Source: Pseudomonadota bacterium
Lineage (GTDB): Bacteria > Pseudomonadota > Alphaproteobacteria > RF32 > CAG-239
Assembly (NCBI GenBank): GCA_918234285.1
Contig: CAKJXZ020000020.1
Span: 1 to 64,000 of the forward strand
Length of the DNA stretch: 64,000 nucleotides
Direction of reading: 5' to 3'
Shown: positions 3,985 to 63,291 of the stretch, in pieces
How positions within the stretch are numbered: position 1 is the stretch's first letter
Layout of the letters: every line of letters starts with the position of its first letter
Translations under genes and position numbers: made by a program
Notes under the pieces: model-generated
Told to the model about the DNA's origin: nothing
The model's input: only the letters and a program-made list of their open reading frames with translations
Databases searched by the model: none

Positions 3985-5139
3985 ATGCTTTTGATTGACA
4001 ATACCGAGAAACTGAATGAGTTTTGTAAAATTTTGCAAAAACAACCGTTTATAACCGTTGATTCCGAATTTATCCGCGAACATTCGTATTATCCGAAACT
4101 ATGCCTGATACAGGTTGCTTATGACGGCGATTCGGCCATCATCGACCCGCTTTCCAAGGCCGATTTATCCGCGTTTTTTGAGGTTTTGCAAAATCCGAAT
4201 GTTGTCAAAGTGTTCCATTCCGGCAAACAAGACATTGAAATATTCTACAATTTGACCGGACAAACTCCGAAAAACGTGTTTGATACGCAAATTGCCGCCA
4301 TGGTCTGCGGCTTTGCCGAGAATATCGGCTATGGCAATCTGGTACGCGAAATTACTAATGTTGATTTGGATAAATCGCAACGTTTGACCGATTGGAGTCT
4401 GCGTCCGCTCGACGAATCGCAACTGCAATATGCTATATGCGACGTAACTTATTTGGTTGATTGCTACAAATACTTGAAAAAATATATGGAAGAACATAAT
4501 CGCACCGATTGGGCCGACGAAGAAACCTGCTGTTTGTGCGACGAAAGTGCTTATTGCATTGAGCCGGAAGAAGCCTGGCTCCGCGTAAAACACAATGCCC
4601 ACTCCCCGCAATTTTTGGCGGCGCTGAAGTATCTGGCCGAATGGCGCGAACGGCGGGCGCAAAAGTTCAACACTCCGCGTTCCGGTATTCTGAAAGATGA
4701 AGTTCTGCTCAATATTGCCAGTGCCTGTCCGAAAACGATTGATGATTTGAAACACGTACGCAATCTCAAAGGCGAAATCGCCAACGGCCGTTTGGGCGCG
4801 GAAATTATGGAAGCGCTGGATAAAGCCAGACAAAACCCGATGCCGTCCGATGTTTGCCGTGCCGACCGCAAACAAAGTTGCAATATTCCGAACCACGAAC
4901 AAAGCCTAGCGGAAATATTGAAGTTATTGTTAAAGATAAAAAGTCAGGAATCCGGAGTTATTGCCCGTTTGATTGCCACAGATGAAGATTTGCGCCACAT
5001 CATTTTGAACCAACCGGAAGATACTCATACCATGCAAGGTTGGCGCTATGAAATCTTCGGACAATTTGCCGAACAACTGTGCCGCGGTAAACTGACTATT
5101 TCTTACAATCCGAAGAAGAAGTGCATCGAATTTAAATAA
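3985..5139 (+). CDS. rnd: Ribonuclease D
   Basis: VDSEF..YYPKLCLIQ, FDTQIAA, TDWSLRPL, YA.DV (DEDD exonuclease) plus HRDC region. Confidence 0.95.
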   Translation: MLLIDNTEKLNEFCKILQKQPFITVDSEFIREHSYYPKLCLIQVAYDGDSAIIDPLSKADLSAFFEVLQNPNVVKVFHSGKQDIEIFYNLTGQTPKNVFDTQIAAMVCGFAENIGYGNLVREITNVDLDKSQRLTDWSLRPLDESQLQYAICDVTYLVDCYKYLKKYMEEHNRTDWADEETCCLCDESAYCIEPEEAWLRVKHNAHSPQFLAALKYLAEWRERRAQKFNTPRSGILKDEVLLNIASACPKTIDDLKHVRNLKGEIANGRLGAEIMEALDKARQNPMPSDVCRADRKQSCNIPNHEQSLAEILKLLLKIKSQESGVIARLIATDEDLRHIILNQPEDTHTMQGWRYEIFGQFAEQLCRGKLTISYNPKKKCIEFK

Positions 5140-59381: not shown

Positions 59382-60158
59382 TTATTCATCATCCATGTCG
59401 TCAAAATCAAAATCATAACCGGCATCTTCCGCCGAAACTTCTTTTTTGCCGCAAACCCCGATTTTAAGGCGATTCTGAATGTACGCCGATTTGATGGTGC
59501 TGTACGGGTCAACCGAATTGGCGGTTAAGTTATCCAAAAATTCGATATTTGCCTCGCGCAGACTGACAAAACCGAGGGCACTGATGCCGTAATAAAACGA
59601 ATAACGCTCCCAATCTTCGCCAAACGAAGAATAGCGGCCTACCCAATAGACCGGGTGGGTATAAGCATCGGCCACCATACTCGCGGTAGCACGCGGAGTA
59701 CTCGGTCCGAACAGCGGCAATATAAAGAACGGTCCGTCCGGTACGCACCAGGCGGCAAGCGTCCGGTCAAAGTCGGTCGGATTCTTGGAGATTCCCCAGC
59801 CGGAAGCCACATCAAAAGTACCGAGTAAACCGATGGTTGAATTTATCAAAAAGCGCCCCATTGATTTTCCGGAATCAAGCAAATCTCCCTGTAACGTGTG
59901 ATTTACCACAGAAATCGGTTCTTTCATGTTTTCAAAGAAGTTTCGCACGCGTTCGCGAACAAAGTCATTTGTAACGGCGCGGTAACCCTTTGCCACCGGC
60001 TTAATCACAAAATAATCGGCCGTGGCATTAACCGCAAACATGGCACGGTTATAGCTTTCCAACGCGCCTTCATCGTCTTCTTCTTCAGCTTTAACCGGTG
60101 CGGCAAGCAATGTTACCAAACAGGTTGTATAACTTAAAATTCTAAATATCTTCTTCAT
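59382..60158 (-). CDS. mlaA: MlaA/VacJ family protein
   Basis: LESYNRAMF, RFLINSTIG.LG.FDVA, GP..ILPLFGPST.R, DPY. Confidence 0.92.
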   Translation of the reverse strand: MKKIFRILSYTTCLVTLLAAPVKAEEEDDEGALESYNRAMFAVNATADYFVIKPVAKGYRAVTNDFVRERVRNFFENMKEPISVVNHTLQGDLLDSGKSMGRFLINSTIGLLGTFDVASGWGISKNPTDFDRTLAAWCVPDGPFFILPLFGPSTPRATASMVADAYTHPVYWVGRYSSFGEDWERYSFYYGISALGFVSLREANIEFLDNLTANSVDPYSTIKSAYIQNRLKIGVCGKKEVSAEDAGYDFDFDDMDDE

Positions 60159-60249
60159 TTTTTTATTCCCTGACAACATAATATATAAACGAACGAACAA
60201 TAAATCAATCAAAAAATTTAACTTGATGGTATGTATAATTTCCGAGCAT

Positions 60250-60306
60250 AAAAAAATCCTCCGGAAAACTATAAACGGAGGATTATAAAAAAGGCAACGC
60301 TTTGCC
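60250..60306 (-). terminator. Tandem terminators ending the candidate ncRNA
   Basis: aaggcaa-agcg-ttgcctttttt followed by aatcctccg...cggaggattttttt. Confidence 0.75.
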
Positions 60307-60525
60307 TTTGCCAATAACTAAAGACTTTTGATATTGTAAATCGAACCCGATGAAGGTATCAGCCGACAGCCTCACCGAGCAATGTGCGCCGATTTCACAA
60401 TCGACGGACATATTACGTAATTACTAACCTGTCACAAACGAACGGGATCGTTTGCCGATGTAAAACGTTTCACAACGCCCTACATCGAATTGTTTAACTA
60501 TAATATCATAATAATCTAAAACATG
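60285..60525 (-). ncRNA. Candidate novel multi-branch structured ncRNA
   Basis: Own promoter and terminator; five internal hairpins, four abutting and two with GUGA tetraloops; closing stem tgatatt/aatatca; G-U pairs favour the minus strand. Confidence 0.7.
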
Positions 60526-60530
60526 GTTTC

Positions 60531-60559
60531 TGTATAGCATTATGCAACTGAAATGTCAA
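60531..60559 (-). promoter_or_regulatory. Promoter of the candidate ncRNA
   Basis: TTGACA-17-TATACA with extended TG. Confidence 0.7.
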
Positions 60560-60573
60560 TACGGTTCTGACGT

Positions 60574-60616
60574 AAAAAAAATACCCCTATCCGCTTCCAC
60601 GGACAAGGGGTATTTT
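60574..60616 (-). terminator. Terminator of the YdcF-like gene
   Basis: aaaatacccct...aggggtatttt with U-tract on the minus strand. Confidence 0.8.
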
Positions 60617-61476
60617 CAGATTCGGGCAATCCAATCGAAAATTTTTTGTTCATAATCGGCTTCAACATCCTTGCGGTGTTTCAGCACATTGAAAAATAAT
60701 TTTCCATATTGCCTCGGTGCCATAAACGGACTGCGGGCAACGCGCAACGGATACTTCTCGGACAGACGCATACCGGCCTGTATAACACGCTTGGGAATCA
60801 TCCTGTCAAAGTCCGCAATACAACGACCGGCGTAACGTTCGGTACCGACTCGGTCATATAGAGCGGCAGCTTCCGATAGCAGCGGTAATCCGTCGGCAAG
60901 AGCCATACCGTTGTAGAGCTGACACACTTCCTTTATATCCTCGCCCGGAACGTAATAATATGCGTTCAGGCTTCCGATTTCCGGAAACTGCTGCGGTAAA
61001 AATTCCACAGTGCGCTCCAAAAGTTTGCTTAACCGTTGAGTAACGCAGAAAATGAGCGGACAATCTGATGAGAACCTCCAAGTCAGATAGTCGGCGATTT
61101 CCTTGAGGTTATCGTTGATGTTGTTGCTTTTATCCAACACCGTAGCCTGAAAATTGCCCAGTCGCAAAGCCGTCATACGCAACTTTGCTCCCTCGCTGAC
61201 CATAGTACCGTCATCCAGCCGGTTAAGGTGCTTGGAAAGCGGTCCGTAACCTCCTACACAAAGTACATTCGGATATTTTCCGAATTGCCGTTTAGCCTGT
61301 TTGGCAATGGCAGCGGCATAATAAGCCGACACCGGATCATCACCGATTGCCACCACAAAACGCGGCTCAATCAACAATCTGCCTGATCTGTCCAAACAGT
61401 CAGTCTCCTGGCGGAAAAACTCAAAAACGGTTTGAGCATCCTGCCAATCCTGATTTCTGAAATCTATTTTTTTCAT
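60616..61476 (-). CDS. Divergent YdcF/DUF218-like protein
   Basis: VGGYG...SEG......A..LG....LDKS.N..DN pattern; IP..V..A...L; no SD. Confidence 0.65.
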   Translation of the reverse strand: MKKIDFRNQDWQDAQTVFEFFRQETDCLDRSGRLLIEPRFVVAIGDDPVSAYYAAAIAKQAKRQFGKYPNVLCVGGYGPLSKHLNRLDDGTMVSEGAKLRMTALRLGNFQATVLDKSNNINDNLKEIADYLTWRFSSDCPLIFCVTQRLSKLLERTVEFLPQQFPEIGSLNAYYYVPGEDIKEVCQLYNGMALADGLPLLSEAAALYDRVGTERYAGRCIADFDRMIPKRVIQAGMRLSEKYPLRVARSPFMAPRQYGKLFFNVLKHRKDVEADYEQKIFDWIARI

Positions 61477-61562
61477 ATCTAAAAAATTTGAATAATAATA
61501 CTTTTGAAACTCTGCATCTTTACCGCCCTAAGGCTTAAATGTTCGCAAATCTTGCCCGGATA

Positions 61563-62912
61563 TTATTGATACTCCGTCCGAGAATGACGTGCGGCGGTAT
61601 TTTGATATTGTTTTTTACCCTTTGTTGCCTTTTTATCGGCCGCGGCATTATTTTGCCCCTGCACGTGTCCTCTGGTTTGTTCCATTTTCTGCTTATTGAC
61701 TTCCGCGGCTTCTTTGGCGGCCATATAATCGTAATAATCCGGCGCCAGATGGAAATACACATCATATTTAGGCATAACCATAACCTCGGAAACGCGATGT
61801 CTGATATCATGGCGACGACCGTGCGCTTTGCCCGGGAAAGTAAATTCCCTCGCCGATTTTATGAAATCATCGTGTTGCGATTTTAAAACCTCTTCCACCG
61901 TCAGATTCGGATTACCGTTGACCATCTGCTCGGCTACTTTATGCCAATCTGCCAGGCGCTGTTGCGTATTCTCAATGATTTCCTCGCGGTTTTGCGCAAT
62001 AATCTCGCTGATTTCTATCTGATGCCGCGGTGCTACTTTAGTCAGCAGTTGTTTATTTTCCGGTGTCAGATAATCATAAACATTCAAATCAAAAACTCTG
62101 CCGGCGGAATCGCACACCTGAATGGTAAAGGCCGCTTCAATAGCGCGGCGATAGTTTTCTTCTTTGATTTTTGCCGGAATACCGGAAGTATCCGACATTG
62201 AATGAACCGTCTGCATAAGTTGTTTGGTATAACTGTCCGATGTTGTCATCATGGAATATGTGTGGGCAAAAACATTGTTTACCATCAAGGTTAACAGTCT
62301 TTCTCTGTCCTTTTGTTTGTCGGAAGTATATCTGTACAGCCAACCTTTTTGCAACAGATTACCAAAGTCAAAATTGGCATCGTGCAACAAACCGACAATA
62401 CTGTCCGCCTCCGCACTTTTATTCATTTCGTACATGGTTTGATATAAATAAGCGTTGAATTCAACGGCAATACCCAAACTGTATCCGTGTTTCGGAGAAA
62501 CCTTACCGAACGGCATTCCGTACAGATTGGAATATCTGCTGTGTGTACCTTCGTGCACATCCACCGATACCGGTGTACCGCTGTGCGGTTGATTTTCAAC
62601 TCCGGCAAAATGATATTTTATGGTGATATTGTCATCAAAGTCATAATAAGCCACGTTGCCGGTATAAGTTCCTTTCTTTACCTTGTCAATGATGGCAGAA
62701 TTGTAAACCGTATCAACCTGATAGTATAATTTGGTGTCGACATACTGGTAATTGATATATTCCTGCGGTACCGAGACTACGTTTTCGGCCGGAGCCGGAG
62801 AATTGTCCGCCGTGACGTTCTGCGCCTTACTTTCTCCCGAAAGCCAAAAACCTCCGGCAGTAATGGCGGCAATTTTAAAATAACGATTTAATTTATCAAA
62901 CCAGTTTGTCAT
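61563..62912 (-). CDS. Hypothetical exported/anchored protein with HEXXH motif
   Basis: SD aagga before MTNWF; hydrophobic N-terminus ending SKA-Q; VHEGTH...E.NAY. Confidence 0.75.
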   Translation of the reverse strand: MTNWFDKLNRYFKIAAITAGGFWLSGESKAQNVTADNSPAPAENVVSVPQEYINYQYVDTKLYYQVDTVYNSAIIDKVKKGTYTGNVAYYDFDDNITIKYHFAGVENQPHSGTPVSVDVHEGTHSRYSNLYGMPFGKVSPKHGYSLGIAVEFNAYLYQTMYEMNKSAEADSIVGLLHDANFDFGNLLQKGWLYRYTSDKQKDRERLLTLMVNNVFAHTYSMMTTSDSYTKQLMQTVHSMSDTSGIPAKIKEENYRRAIEAAFTIQVCDSAGRVFDLNVYDYLTPENKQLLTKVAPRHQIEISEIIAQNREEIIENTQQRLADWHKVAEQMVNGNPNLTVEEVLKSQHDDFIKSAREFTFPGKAHGRRHDIRHRVSEVMVMPKYDVYFHLAPDYYDYMAAKEAAEVNKQKMEQTRGHVQGQNNAAADKKATKGKKQYQNTAARHSRTEYQ

Positions 62913-63021
62913 TTTAATCCTTTTCGGTTGCAGTATATTCCCTTTTTGTCCACAAGTCAAGTCCTTTGCAAAACAGATGCGAAAAAAAATCGCCGACTTA
63001 CACCGGCAATTTTTCTTTATT

Positions 63022-63291
63022 TTACTGTATATTTTGATAATTGGAGTTAAAAATCTCAATGTACGACGGCGGATTTTCCGCAACGGTTCTGCCGTCAGGC
63101 GGTGTTTCTCCGGCCGCTTTGAATACGGCATCGGCAAATTCTTTCTTGGCTAAATAAATCAAAAACAGCGGTCGCTCCAGCTTGAGCTTACCCATAACTT
63201 CTTCCAAAGCCTCAAAACTTTCATAAATCGTACCGGCAAACATCAAACTGTCTTCCAGTCTGACATATTCATTATCTTGTATTTTTCGCAT
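63022..63291 (-). CDS. Small hypothetical protein
   Basis: SD gaggg before ATG 63291. Confidence 0.65.
   Translation of the reverse strand: MRKIQDNEYVRLEDSLMFAGTIYESFEALEEVMGKLKLERPLFLIYLAKKEFADAVFKAAGETPPDGRTVAENPPSYIEIFNSNYQNIQ

What the first reader, a model, noticed from the sequence alone, without database searches (positions are those of the whole stretch)
60285..60559. Stand-alone, highly structured ~230-nt ncRNA that matches no family I recognise
Seen in the sequence (minus strand): a TTGACA-17-TATACA promoter, followed by four hairpins that abut with zero-nt linkers. These are 60456-60487 (14 bp including 3 G-U, loop GUGA), 60434-60455, 60407-60433 (weak) and 60387-60406 (8 bp, loop GUGA). 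A fifth hairpin lies at 60345-60380. All are enclosed by a long-range stem (60498-60517 with 60322-60339: agatt..tgatatt / aatatca..agtct) and followed by two terminators. Both GNRA loops sit in the same UUGUGAAA context. The upstream gene has its own terminator and mlaA has its own promoter, so this is unlikely to be a UTR. The RNase P, SRP, tmRNA and T-box signatures I know are absent. Inference: a new structured RNA class, possibly a protein-binding scaffold or ribozyme, or the RNA partner of an unlinked enzyme such as a reverse transcriptase (the terminal inverted repeat recalls retron a1/a2).
Basis: partly seen in the sequence, partly recalled or inferred. Interest (0 to 1): 0.8.

Follow-up and report, generated by a model that had tools for sequence, protein, structure and literature searches.

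The report
New multi-hairpin small RNA family
The flagged stretch is a real, separately transcribed, strongly folded small RNA gene, one of at least four related copies in this gut or rumen bacterium, and it belongs to a previously uncatalogued small-RNA family found in only ten closely related species.

Summary
A TTGACA-17-TATACA promoter, abutting hairpins, two UUGUGAAA loops and a terminator lie between an unknown 286-aa gene and mlaA. The fold beats all 200 shuffles (z -5.0). No Rfam 15 family matches.

It is not a one-off. Covariance models found relatives at 16 loci (E<1e-3) in 10 of the 50 genomes of the genus. Those ten are the closest relatives by MlaA score. None was found in 138 genomes of 22 other genera of the family, or in 150 other genomes of the class.

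This genome holds at least four paralogs. Hairpins H1, H4, H5 and H6 are 91-96% paired across five orthologs and show compensatory changes. The long-range closing stem is weakly supported, and H2 and H3 are lineage-specific.

The family hallmark is a hairpin with a C.C mismatch, 4 bp and a G-start tetraloop (18 of 19 members).

Two paralogs carry an 18-nt stretch identical to the seed of Bacteroides FopS sRNAs, at a sub-threshold score.

Best reading: a modular, multicopy trans-acting sRNA with an Hfq-type 3' end. The ribozyme, riboswitch, retron and coding readings are not supported. Its function is inferred, not shown.

The parts
60554..60559 (-). -35 box TTGACA of the sRNA promoter
   Evidence: Read. 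The identical box is present in the G001 and G066 orthologs. TTGAC(A/T)-N16/17-TAnnn(T/A) lies upstream of 14 of 17 family members.
60531..60536 (-). -10 box TATACA, 17 nt after the -35 box
   Evidence: Read. Conserved in G001. The scan does not list it because its rule needs T at position 6.
60250..60524 (-). Predicted transcript, about 275 nt. The 5' end is inferred from the -10 box and the 3' end from the terminator U-tract.
   Evidence: An RNA-library contig of run X7 covers 60310-60473 at 100% identity. No transcript ends were mapped.
60489..60500 (-). Conserved linear motif UAGUUAAACAAU (core UUAAACA). It is a candidate seed, and also the 5' strand of the alternative closing stem P1.
   Evidence: UUAAACA occurs in 10 of 19 family members, against 0.034 expected per 300 nt. 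P1 is 80% paired.
60456..60487 (-). Hairpin H1: 14 bp, loop GUGA in a UUGUGAAA context
   Evidence: 95.7% paired in 5 orthologs, with 4 pairs changed on both sides. The loop stays GNRA (GUGA or GGGA).
60434..60455 (-). Hairpin H2: 8 bp, a lineage-specific insertion
   Evidence: Present only in G000 and G001. It is a gap in G066, G035 and G007 (67.9% paired).
60412..60433 (-). Variable H3 region, containing the palindrome AUUACGUAAU
   Evidence: Not conserved beyond G001.
60382..60411 (-). Hairpin H4 (core 60387-60406, 8 bp, loop GUGA) with a 4-bp extension (60408-60411 with 60382-60385)
   Evidence: 93.3% paired in 5 orthologs, with 5 of 12 pairs changed on both sides. The loop is GUGA or GCGA.
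60345..60380 (-). Hairpin H5, the family hallmark. The apical module at 60354-60371 reads GGC-UGUC-GGCU-GAUA-CC: two G-C/G-U pairs, a C.C mismatch, 4 bp and a tetraloop.
   Evidence: 14 pairs. 89.7% paired in 9 members, with 9 pairs changed on both sides. The C.C module is present in 18 of 19 members.
60310..60344 (-). H5-H6 linker (UUCGAUUUACAAUAUCAAAAGUCUUUAGUUAUUGG). In paralogs b and c, this same position carries the FopS-like seed.
   Evidence: GUAUCAAAAGU is conserved only in G000, G001 and G066.
60293..60306 (-). Hairpin H6: GGCAA-AGCG-UUGCC, with a conserved AGCG loop.
   Evidence: Scan hit at 60309-60290. 90.7% paired, with 5 of 6 pairs changed on both sides in 9 members. G035 and G007 have no T-run after it.
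60250..60283 (-). Intrinsic terminator: 8-bp stem AUCCUCCG/CGGAGGAU, a 12-nt loop and a U7 tract (60256-60250). A U-rich spacer at 60284-60292 precedes it.
   Evidence: Read. An equivalent GAUCCCC-type terminator is present in all members.
60180..60236 (-). mlaA's own promoter block (-35 TTGATT 60208-60203, -10 TATATT 60185-60180, plus an upstream ACATACC element). It is not part of the RNA.
   Evidence: Scan. The block is also conserved in species without the RNA upstream of mlaA (L009, L011, L013).

Best explanation
The locus is an independent gene for a structured small RNA of about 275 nt. It belongs to a multicopy, fast-diversifying sRNA family confined to one subclade of an uncultured gut or rumen alphaproteobacterial genus.

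Shown:
- Each copy is its own transcription unit, with a sigma-70-type promoter, an RNA body and an intrinsic terminator.
- Each body is built from interchangeable hairpin modules capped by GNRA-type tetraloops.
- The conserved 3' half consists of H5 (a C.C mismatch four pairs below the loop), a variable single-stranded linker, H6 (AGCG loop), a U-rich spacer and a terminator with a U7 tail.

Inferred mechanism:
- The RNA acts in trans as a riboregulator.
- The invariant hairpins H5 and H6 and the 3' end serve as a protein and stability platform. Hfq is the only classical chaperone found.
- The variable single-stranded segments are seeds that pair with mRNAs near start codons.
- In this copy the candidate seed is UAGUUAAACAAU. 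In paralogs b and c it is a stretch identical to the Bacteroides FopS seed.
- Paralogs with different seeds would then give different target sets on one common scaffold.
For: Independence:
- It has its own promoter and terminator.
- mlaA keeps a separate, conserved promoter.
- Paralogs sit at unrelated loci: C14 in tandem and C12.

Real structure:
- z = -5.04 against shuffles.
- In MAFFT alignments not fitted to any structure, H5 and H6 are 90% paired, against 33-49% with slid partners. 14 of 20 pairs changed on both sides, and 0 of 500 shuffles reach the observed values.
- Across 5 orthologs H1 is 95.7%, H4 93.3%, H5 91.4% and H6 95.8% paired.

Family:
- 16 loci at E<1e-3 in 10 of 50 genus genomes.
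- 18 of 19 members carry the C.C module.
- Each RNA has 2-4 GNRA-capped 4-bp hairpins, against 0.22 expected per 300 nt.

Modularity rather than a fixed fold:
- H2 and H3 are present only in the closest species.
- A 5' UGUC-GNGA-GAUA hairpin is present in G035 and G007 but not in this copy.

Seed idea:
- Members split into a UUAAACA class (10 of 19) and a UUUUUCAU or UUCAUACGAG class.
- Paralog b matches positions 1-18 of the FopS consensus exactly.
- In G066 the genome-wide best FopS hit is the b-type paralog, at E 0.0015.
- FopS is shown to repress translation by pairing at start codons (PMC11697453, passages read).

3' end:
- The terminator has 7 T. Terminators of Hfq-binding sRNA genes have seven or more (PMC5558911, abstract seen in the listing).
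- Hfq is present in 50 of 50 genus genomes.

Expression hint:
- In RNA-library run X7, a 164-nt contig at 100% identity lies wholly inside the RNA. Nothing was laid on the flanking genes.
Against: - No target was identified. 10-mer complementarity to start regions, and genes starting ATGTTTAA, gave only chance-level lists.
- The alternative stem P1 would partly sequester the candidate seed of this copy.
- The H5-H6 linker of this copy is conserved only in the three closest species.
- This copy itself has no FopS-like sequence. The FopS resemblance of paralogs b and c is below Rfam's threshold (24.5-34.5 bits against 56). In G035, G007 and G062 the best FopS hits are not at the family loci.
- The FopS partner type, an RRM_1 protein, is absent from all 10 RNA-bearing genomes.
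- Hfq is universal in the genus, so its presence does not single out this family.
- At 275 nt with five or six hairpins, the RNA is large and more structured than typical Hfq sRNAs.
- Expression rests on one assembled contig in one RNA library. That contig could be DNA carry-over.
Confidence: 0.5

Rival explanations
1. It is a protein-binding (sponge or scaffold) RNA. The repeated, sequence-conserved hairpins (UU-GUGA-AA, GUC-GNGA-GAU and the C.C module) are binding sites for one RNA-binding protein. The RNA would work by titrating or assembling that protein, as CsrB and RsmZ do with CsrA, and not by base pairing.
For: - There are several copies of similar GNRA-capped hairpins per RNA. Their number varies between members (2-4) while hairpin identity is kept.
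- The loops and closing pairs are conserved in sequence while the stems covary.
- The C.C mismatch is kept in 18 of 19 members.
- No convincing mRNA target was found.
Against: - No candidate protein co-occurs with the family. RRM_1 is absent, ProQ was not found, and Hfq is universal.
- No neighbouring gene is shared between loci.
- The most conserved linear elements are single-stranded motifs that contain an anti-start-codon CAU, and paralogs b and c carry a known pairing seed.
Confidence: 0.27
2. It is a cis-acting leader or attenuator that controls the downstream mlaA-mlaC operon by conditional termination.
For: - In 6 of the 10 species (G000, G001, G066, G035, G007, G005) a family member lies directly upstream of mlaA on the same strand.
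- The layout of a structured domain followed by a terminator resembles a riboswitch.
Against: - mlaA has its own promoter block, conserved also where no RNA lies upstream.
- In G008, G003, G036 and G062 the RNA is elsewhere. Paralogs b, c and d sit next to unrelated genes.
- The architecture is not fixed.
- There are two successive hairpins and a U7 tail.
Confidence: 0.05
3. It is a globular catalytic or ligand-binding RNA (a ribozyme or orphan riboswitch-like aptamer) enclosed by a terminal stem.
For: - High folding z-score.
- GNRA loops could make tertiary contacts.
- A long-range stem appears in the centroid fold.
Against: - The closing stem is only 58-80% paired across orthologs.
- Hairpins are gained and lost between close species.
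- No multi-helix junction or core is conserved.
- Only local hairpins are conserved.
Confidence: 0.04
4. It is a relic of a mobile or repeated element, or a retron-type RNA partner of an unlinked reverse transcriptase.
For: - The family is multicopy in the genome, sometimes in tandem.
- There is a weak terminal inverted repeat.
Against: - Paralogs are highly diverged, while orthologs stay syntenic across species.
- Each copy has its own promoter and terminator.
- Compensatory changes show selection on the RNA structure.
- blastn found no match in 50,697 phage or 72,556 plasmid records.
- RVT_1 is present in only 2 of the 10 RNA-bearing genomes and is not adjacent.
Confidence: 0.03
5. It encodes a small protein, from the 42-codon ORF at 60283-60411.
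For: An ATG-started 42-codon frame is open in this genome.
Against: - The frame is cut to 25 codons in G001, whose MlaA is 98% identical to this genome's.
- One search lists no equivalent ORF of 25 or more codons for G007a or G066a. By eye, the G066a frame runs on through the terminator.
- G035 uses other frames.
- There is no Shine-Dalgarno sequence upstream (AGTAATTACGTAAT).
- The substitutions are compensatory for stems.
Confidence: 0.02

Closest known systems
FopS / GibS sRNAs of Bacteroides thetaiotaomicron (Rfam RF04319, RF04182; PMC11697453)
   Same: - Both are multicopy paralogous sRNA families of a gut bacterium, in which each copy has its own promoter and intrinsic terminator.
- Paralogs b and c of this family carry GUGUUUUUCAUGGUAUUA, identical to positions 1-18 of the FopS consensus. 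That stretch is the seed that pairs at start codons. A similar linker and then a terminator follow it.
   Different: - The flagged copy has no FopS-like sequence.
- Scores are 24.5-34.5 bits against a threshold of 56.
- FopS RNAs are 65-70 nt, with the seed at the very 5' end. Here the seed-like stretch is internal to an RNA of about 300 nt, behind a multi-hairpin domain.
- The promoters are TTGACA-type, not the Bacteroides type.
- The FopS partner RbpB is an RRM_1 protein. None was found in the 10 genomes.
- The organisms belong to different phyla.
Cuckoo RNA family of Alphaproteobacteria (PMC4615179, abstract read)
   Same: - Both are alphaproteobacterial and multicopy.
- Both consist of a variable number of adjacent hairpins, each carrying the same loop motif, with highly variable stems.
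- Such families are hard to capture with a single covariance model.
   Different: - Cuckoo loops carry CCUCCUCCC (9 nt). Here the loops are 4-nt GNRA-type tetraloops, too short to act as seeds.
- The sequence read has no CCUCCUCCC loop.
- One search returned no matching Rfam family of any kind.
Hfq-dependent sRNAs with a hairpin, U-rich spacer and terminator 3' module (for example SgrS and RyhB). PMC5558911 was seen as an abstract in the listing. The 'double-hairpin module' description is recalled, not read.
   Same: - H6, then a U-rich spacer, then a terminator hairpin and a tail of 7 U.
- The genome encodes Hfq.
   Different: - This RNA is much longer and more structured.
- Hfq binding was not tested.
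- In G035 and G007 the spacer after H6 is not U-rich.
CsrB / RsmZ-type protein-titrating sRNAs (comparison recalled from general knowledge)
   Same: - Repeated similar hairpins on one RNA.
- Several paralogs per genome.
- The number of modules varies.
   Different: - The loops are GNRA, not GGA.
- No CsrA-type partner was identified. I did not search for CsrA.

Membership tests
Any Rfam 15 family | Score at or above the family's gathering threshold | tested here: not met
   There were 0 matches at gathering score in the whole 64-kb window. In E-value mode on 60100-60700 the best hits had E of 0.21 or higher and 24 bits or fewer, all far below threshold.
FopS (RF04319) | Covariance-model score of 56 bits or more | tested here: not met
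   The flagged copy has no hit even at E<=10. Paralogs b and c score 32.0 and 33.8 bits. The G066 and G001 paralogs score 34.5 and 24.5 bits.
FopS (RF04319) | Single-stranded seed (R1') at the 5' end, followed directly by a terminator, in a 65-70 nt RNA (PMC11697453) | tested here: not met
   The seed-like 18-mer of paralogs b and c lies about 200 nt into an RNA of about 300 nt, between H5 and H6. The flagged copy lacks it.
FopS (RF04319) | Partner protein RbpB of the RRM_1 type in the genome | tested here: not met
   PF00076 was found in 0 of the 10 RNA-bearing genomes, and in 1 of 50 in the genus (G025). The control rings in B. thetaiotaomicron.
Hfq-dependent trans-acting sRNA (a kind, not a sequence family) | Intrinsic terminator with 7 or more U at the 3' end | tested here: met
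   The stem at 60283-60256 is followed by U7 ending at 60250. The criterion comes from the PMC5558911 abstract.
Hfq-dependent trans-acting sRNA (a kind, not a sequence family) | Hfq encoded by the organism | tested here: met
   PF17209 scores 84.7 bits at G000:C14:48101-48283. It is present in 50 of 50 genus genomes.
Hfq-dependent trans-acting sRNA (a kind, not a sequence family) | A seed that pairs with defined mRNA targets, and physical Hfq binding | tested here: inconclusive
   The conserved linear motif UUAAACA is present, but no outstanding complementary start region was found. Hfq binding cannot be tested with these tools.
Cuckoo RNA family | Two to four adjacent hairpins, each with loop motif CCUCCUCCC | tested here: not met
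   Adjacent hairpins are present, but their loops are GUGA, GUGA and GGCU. There is no CCUCCUCCC loop.
Retron ncRNA (msr/msd) | A reverse transcriptase gene adjacent to, or at least co-occurring with, the RNA | tested here: not met
   The neighbours are a 286-aa ORF with no family and MlaA. RVT_1 is present in only G000 and G062 among the 10 RNA-bearing genomes.
Riboswitch / cis-regulatory leader | A fixed aptamer architecture consistently upstream of the regulated gene, with no separate promoter for that gene | tested here: not met
   mlaA has a separate conserved promoter. Members lie at unrelated loci. The architecture is variable.
6S RNA (RF00013) | The genome's 6S RNA is this locus | tested here: not met
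   A 6S RNA above threshold (63.5 bits) lies elsewhere, at G000:C30:94741-94897.

The most novel reading that the evidence does not exclude
The family may be a seed-swapping riboregulator platform. One conserved scaffold, defined by the C.C-mismatch/GNRA hairpin H5 and the AGCG hairpin H6, would be recognised by a still unknown RNA-binding protein. Onto that scaffold, different single-stranded seeds have been grafted in different paralogs. One of those seeds is identical over 18 nt to the FopS/GibS seed of Bacteroidota. That identity would mean either transfer of a riboregulator module between phyla that share the gut, or strict convergence on the same start-codon target sequence.
Probability: 0.18. 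Interest if true: 0.65.

Novelty: new variant of a known kind. Interest (0 to 1): 0.4.

Why it matters
- It adds a covariation-supported sRNA family, absent from Rfam 15, in an uncultured gut or rumen alphaproteobacterial lineage for which I know of no described riboregulator. My two topic searches found none.
- It is a clear example of modular sRNA evolution. Hairpin modules and the 3' end are conserved, while single-stranded segments and hairpin number change between paralogs and close species.
- If the sub-threshold identity of two paralogs to the Bacteroides FopS seed is real, it raises a testable question. Are sRNA seeds exchanged, or convergently selected, between unrelated members of one microbiome?
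- The distribution is narrow (10 species) and no function is shown, so the general impact is moderate.

Tried and rejected
- **Plain DNA search.** A search with the locus in 61 relatives found only G001 and a 31-nt piece in G035. Covariance models were needed.
- **Wider searches with model R2.**
  - 0 of 150 other genomes of the class had a match.
  - In the family draw, 1 of 150 other genomes matched, and it was G066. That leaves 0 of 138 genomes in 22 other genera.
  - Both runs used stricter filters and scored only 20 candidates per genome, so weak relatives could be missed.
- **Pattern scans.**
  - The genome-contig scan gave 103 stretches, of which 80 were listed. Only 3 loci (L073, L094, L117) matched model R1. 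The other 77 listed loci had no R1 match and I take them as chance; many are titled as high-GC lineages. 23 stretches were never shown to me.
  - The metagenome-contig scan gave 7 stretches and 0 R2 matches.
- **Weak R2 hits (E 0.002-0.1) in G067, G029, G069, G034, G025, G018, G006, G068, G070, G071 and G000:C3.**
  - I inspected seven of them.
  - They are terminator-like hairpins or coding-like sequence and were not counted.
  - G067 has related hairpins and may be a distant relative.
- **Read laying.**
  - DNA runs X5 and X6 gave only short contigs. Uncovered parts mean nothing.
  - X7 shows presence in an RNA library, not transcript ends or strand.
- **Target searches.**
  - FopS-like seed against start regions: 3 sites for the 12-mer, one of which is the antisense of the sRNA itself.
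  - All 10-mers of this RNA against start regions: a long chance-level list.
  - Genes starting ATGTTTAA with a Shine-Dalgarno sequence: 9, with no common theme.
  - A duplex-energy scan timed out.
- **Neighbouring genes of paralogs and of the G008 and G003 copies.** No shared family was found. A GpsA-like gene lies next to b and c. The others had no Pfam hit, or only hits below the cut-off.
- **Whole-genome scan for the C.C module with a loose pattern.** It gave 105 mostly spurious sites. A tighter pattern recovered a, b and c and revealed d.
- **11-nt tetraloop receptor.** I considered UAUGG/CCUAAG-like pieces by eye in G035 and G007. They were not convincing and I dropped the idea.
- **Not used.** Structure prediction, complex prediction, protein homology searches and the protein atlas, because no protein is at issue.
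- **Supplements.** Supplementary data of PMC11697453 (the FopS target lists) could not be seen.
Full report
**1. What is at the coordinates**

The region is a 457-nt gap, all on the minus strand. It lies between a 286-aa ORF with no Pfam family (60616-61476) and mlaA (59382-60158, PF04333, E 2e-62). mlaC follows mlaA.

- TTGACA (60559-60554), a 17-nt spacer and TATACA (60536-60531).
- H1 at 60487-60456, H2 at 60455-60434, H4 at 60406-60387 and H5 at 60380-60345.
- Two GUGA loops in a UUGUGAAA context.
- A hairpin plus T-run at 60309-60290, and a second one at 60283-60256 followed by U7.

The fold of 60285-60535 is -78.7 kcal/mol, against -57.4 +/- 4.2 for 200 shuffles (z -5.04, none as good).

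Rfam 15 gives nothing at gathering score in the whole window. In E-value mode it gives only noise, with E of 0.21 or higher.

**2. It is a separate gene, not a leader**

mlaA was found in 48 of 50 genomes of the genus. Directly upstream of it, a block with ACATACC, TTTTTTGATTGATTTATTG and TATATATT is conserved. This holds even in species where the preceding gene ends right at the block and no RNA is present (L009, L011, L013). So mlaA has its own promoter at 60208-60180. The RNA, with its own promoter and terminator, is inserted upstream of that block.

**3. Relatives**

- Plain DNA search found only one close ortholog, at 82% identity.
- nhmmer on the regions upstream of mlaA added G066 and G035.
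- Model R1, built from three orthologs, found G007, G008, G005 (two tandem copies) and G003. It also found a second locus in this genome.
- Model R2 covers the conserved 3' half and was built from 9 sequences. I ran it on all 50 genus genomes. It gave 16 loci at E<1e-3 in 10 genomes:
  - G000: 3 loci.
  - G001, G066, G035 and G007: 2 loci each.
  - G003, G005, G008, G036 and G062: 1 locus each.
- Besides G000, these are exactly the nine genomes with the best MlaA matches. The family therefore marks one subclade.
- R2 found nothing in 138 genomes of 22 other genera of the family, or in 150 other genomes of the class. Both runs used strict filters.
- A pattern scan of the named genome collection gave 103 stretches, of which 80 were listed. 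Only 3 loci matched R1. All three are titled as uncultured Alphaproteobacteria or proteobacterium MAGs.
- A scan of JGI metagenomes gave 7 stretches, none of them real.
- blastn found no match in phage or plasmid collections.

**4. Paralogs**

This genome has at least four members:
- **a**: the finding, on C20.
- **b and c**: in tandem on C14, with R2 hits at 4572-4716 and 4897-5041.
- **d**: on C12, at about 61430-61745 on the minus strand. A motif scan found it. It lacks H6 and shares its terminator with G005b.

Other points:
- G005 and G062 also carry tandem copies.
- A TTGAC(A/T)-N16/17-TAnnn(T/A) promoter precedes 14 of 17 members examined.
- The loci share no neighbouring gene.

**5. Structure evidence**

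On a MAFFT alignment of 9 members (A6, not fitted to any structure), H5 and H6 together have 20 pairs:
- 90% of cells are paired, against 33-49% when partners are slid.
- 14 pairs changed on both sides.
- 0 of 500 shuffles reach the observed values.

On a MAFFT alignment of the five a-type orthologs (A7):

| Helix | Cells paired | Pairs changed on both sides |
|---|---|---|
| H1 | 95.7% | 4 |
| H4 with its 4-bp extension | 93.3% | 5 |
| H5 | 91.4% | 3 |
| H6 | 95.8% | 1 |
| H2 | 67.9% | 1 |
| Alternative P1 (60500-60493 with 60322-60315) | 80% | 1 |

- H2 is a gap in three of the five orthologs.
- A model-fitted alignment of 10 members gives 90.9% paired for 67 pairs, but such an alignment leans towards the model's structure.
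- The local hairpins are therefore real and under selection. A closing stem is not established.

**6. Family hallmarks**

- H5 carries an apical module: two G-C/G-U pairs, a C.C mismatch, 4 bp, then a tetraloop that starts with G. Examples are GGC-UGUC-GGCA-GAUA-CC, GGC-AGUU-GUGA-AACU-CC and GAC-AAUU-GCGA-AAUU-CUC. 18 of 19 members have it under a strict test. G007a deviates.
- H6 keeps the loop AGCG while its stem changes between GCAA/UUGC and GUAU/AUAC.
- Each RNA holds 2-4 GNRA-capped hairpins of at least 4 bp. The genome background is 0.22 per 300 nt.
- Hairpin content differs between close relatives. G035 and G007 have a 5' UGUC-GUGA-GA(C/U)A hairpin that this copy lacks. H2 and H3 occur only in G000 and G001.
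- This is modular evolution, not a fixed tertiary core.

**7. An unexpected link**

In E-value mode, Rfam's FopS model (RF04319, a family of paralogous sRNAs of Bacteroides) hits the 3' parts of paralogs b and c. The scores are 32.0 and 33.8 bits, against a threshold of 56, with E 0.009 and 0.004 on 801 nt.

- In b, GUGUUUUUCAUGGUAUUA is identical to consensus positions 1-18.
- In G066 and G001 the genome-wide best FopS hit is the b-type paralog (34.5 bits, E 0.0015; and 24.5 bits, E 0.125). In G035, G007 and G062 it is not.

According to the passages of PMC11697453 that I read:
- FopS RNAs are 65-70 nt.
- They have a single-stranded 5' seed and a terminator.
- They repress susC mRNAs by pairing at the start codon.
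- The RRM protein RbpB binds them.

Here the seed-like stretch lies between H5 and H6 of a much longer RNA. No RRM_1 protein exists in the 10 genomes. The flagged copy has no such stretch.

Family members split by linear motif:
- UUAAACA occurs in 10 of 19, including this copy at 60496-60490. Background is 0.034 per 300 nt.
- UUUUUCAU(G/A)G or UUCAUACGAG occurs in the others.

The two 'CAU' motif types contain the complement of AUG. So does the UUAAACAU form that most UUAAACA members carry. This copy reads UUAAACAAU and lacks it.

**8. What it most likely does**

Shown:
- It is an independent gene.
- Its hairpins are under selection.
- It belongs to a multicopy family.
- It has an Hfq-style 3' end: hairpin, U-rich spacer, terminator and U7.
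- Hfq is present in 50 of 50 genus genomes. ProQ was not found in G000.

Inferred:
- It acts as a trans-acting riboregulator.
- The conserved hairpins are a protein and stability platform.
- The variable single-stranded segments are seeds.

I could not find targets. A protein-titrating role therefore remains a serious rival.

Expression rests on one 164-nt contig at 100% identity (60310-60473) in a bovine metatranscriptome library, run X7. Nothing was laid on the flanking genes. This is a hint only.

**9. Rejected readings**

- **6S RNA.** A 6S RNA above threshold lies elsewhere.
- **Retron or RT partner.** RVT_1 occurs in only 2 of the 10 genomes.
- **Coding.** The ORF is truncated or absent in orthologs and has no Shine-Dalgarno sequence.
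- **Cis-leader.** See sections 2 and 4.
- **Mobile relic.** Orthologs are syntenic, paralogs are diverged, and there are no phage or plasmid matches.

**10. Novelty and score**

- No Rfam family matches.
- Full-text searches for FopS, for cuckoo or multicopy sRNAs in Alphaproteobacteria, and for rumen, Alphaproteobacteria and GNRA found no description of such an RNA.
- The kind of system is known: a multicopy, modular sRNA. The closest analogues are the cuckoo RNAs, with adjacent hairpins that share one loop motif (abstract read), and FopS.
- The modules are new, and the distribution is narrow.
- Interest 0.4.

Noticed in passing
G000:C14:~4440-4716 and ~4760-5041 (+), held as loci L047, L168 and L173: Two tandem paralogs (b and c) of the same sRNA family, each with its own TTGACA promoter. 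Both end in AAAGUAUAGCGAUACUUU followed by a GAUCCCCGCGG terminator.
   Followed up: partly
L168:1549-1652 and 1875-1973 (paralogs b and c): A sub-threshold Rfam hit to Bacteroides FopS (32-34 bits against 56). The 18-nt stretch GUGUUUUUCAUGGUAUUA in b is identical to the FopS seed consensus, although this organism is labelled an alphaproteobacterium.
   Followed up: partly
G000:C12:~61430-61745 (-), locus L190: A fourth paralog (d), found by motif scan. It has the 5' UGUC-GAGA-GACA hairpin and the C.C module but no H6. Its terminator is the same as that of the second tandem copy in G005.
   Followed up: partly
window 60180-60236 (-): The mlaA promoter block (ACATACC, then TTTTTTGATTGATTTATTG, then TATATATT) is conserved across many species of the genus, far beyond the usual -35 and -10 boxes. 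This suggests an added regulatory site.
   Followed up: no
G000:C3:15165-15363 (-), locus L174, and G029:C12:1251-1449, locus L162: About 460 nt are nearly identical between two species whose MlaA proteins are only 67% identical. This is probably a shared mobile or phage-derived segment. It ends in a hairpin GAGAAAAGGUGUCGGCAGGCACUUUUUCUC.
   Followed up: no
G035:C83:14226-14344 (-) and G007:C23:17327-17495 (+): In these two species a c-type family member lies about 2.3 kb beyond mlaA, while an a-type member lies upstream of mlaA. The mla gene cluster is therefore flanked by family members.
   Followed up: no
G000:C27:9733-10341 (-), locus L194: A single reverse-transcriptase (RVT_1) gene with a 366-aa open frame. 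Its type (retron, group II intron or DGR) was not determined. It is not linked to the sRNA.
   Followed up: no
window 60412-60421 (-): A perfect 10-nt palindrome, AUUACGUAAU, in the variable H3 region. It is conserved in G001 only.
   Followed up: no
window 60616-61476 (-) and 61563-63137 (-): The 286-aa and 524-aa ORFs upstream of the RNA match no Pfam family.
   Followed up: no
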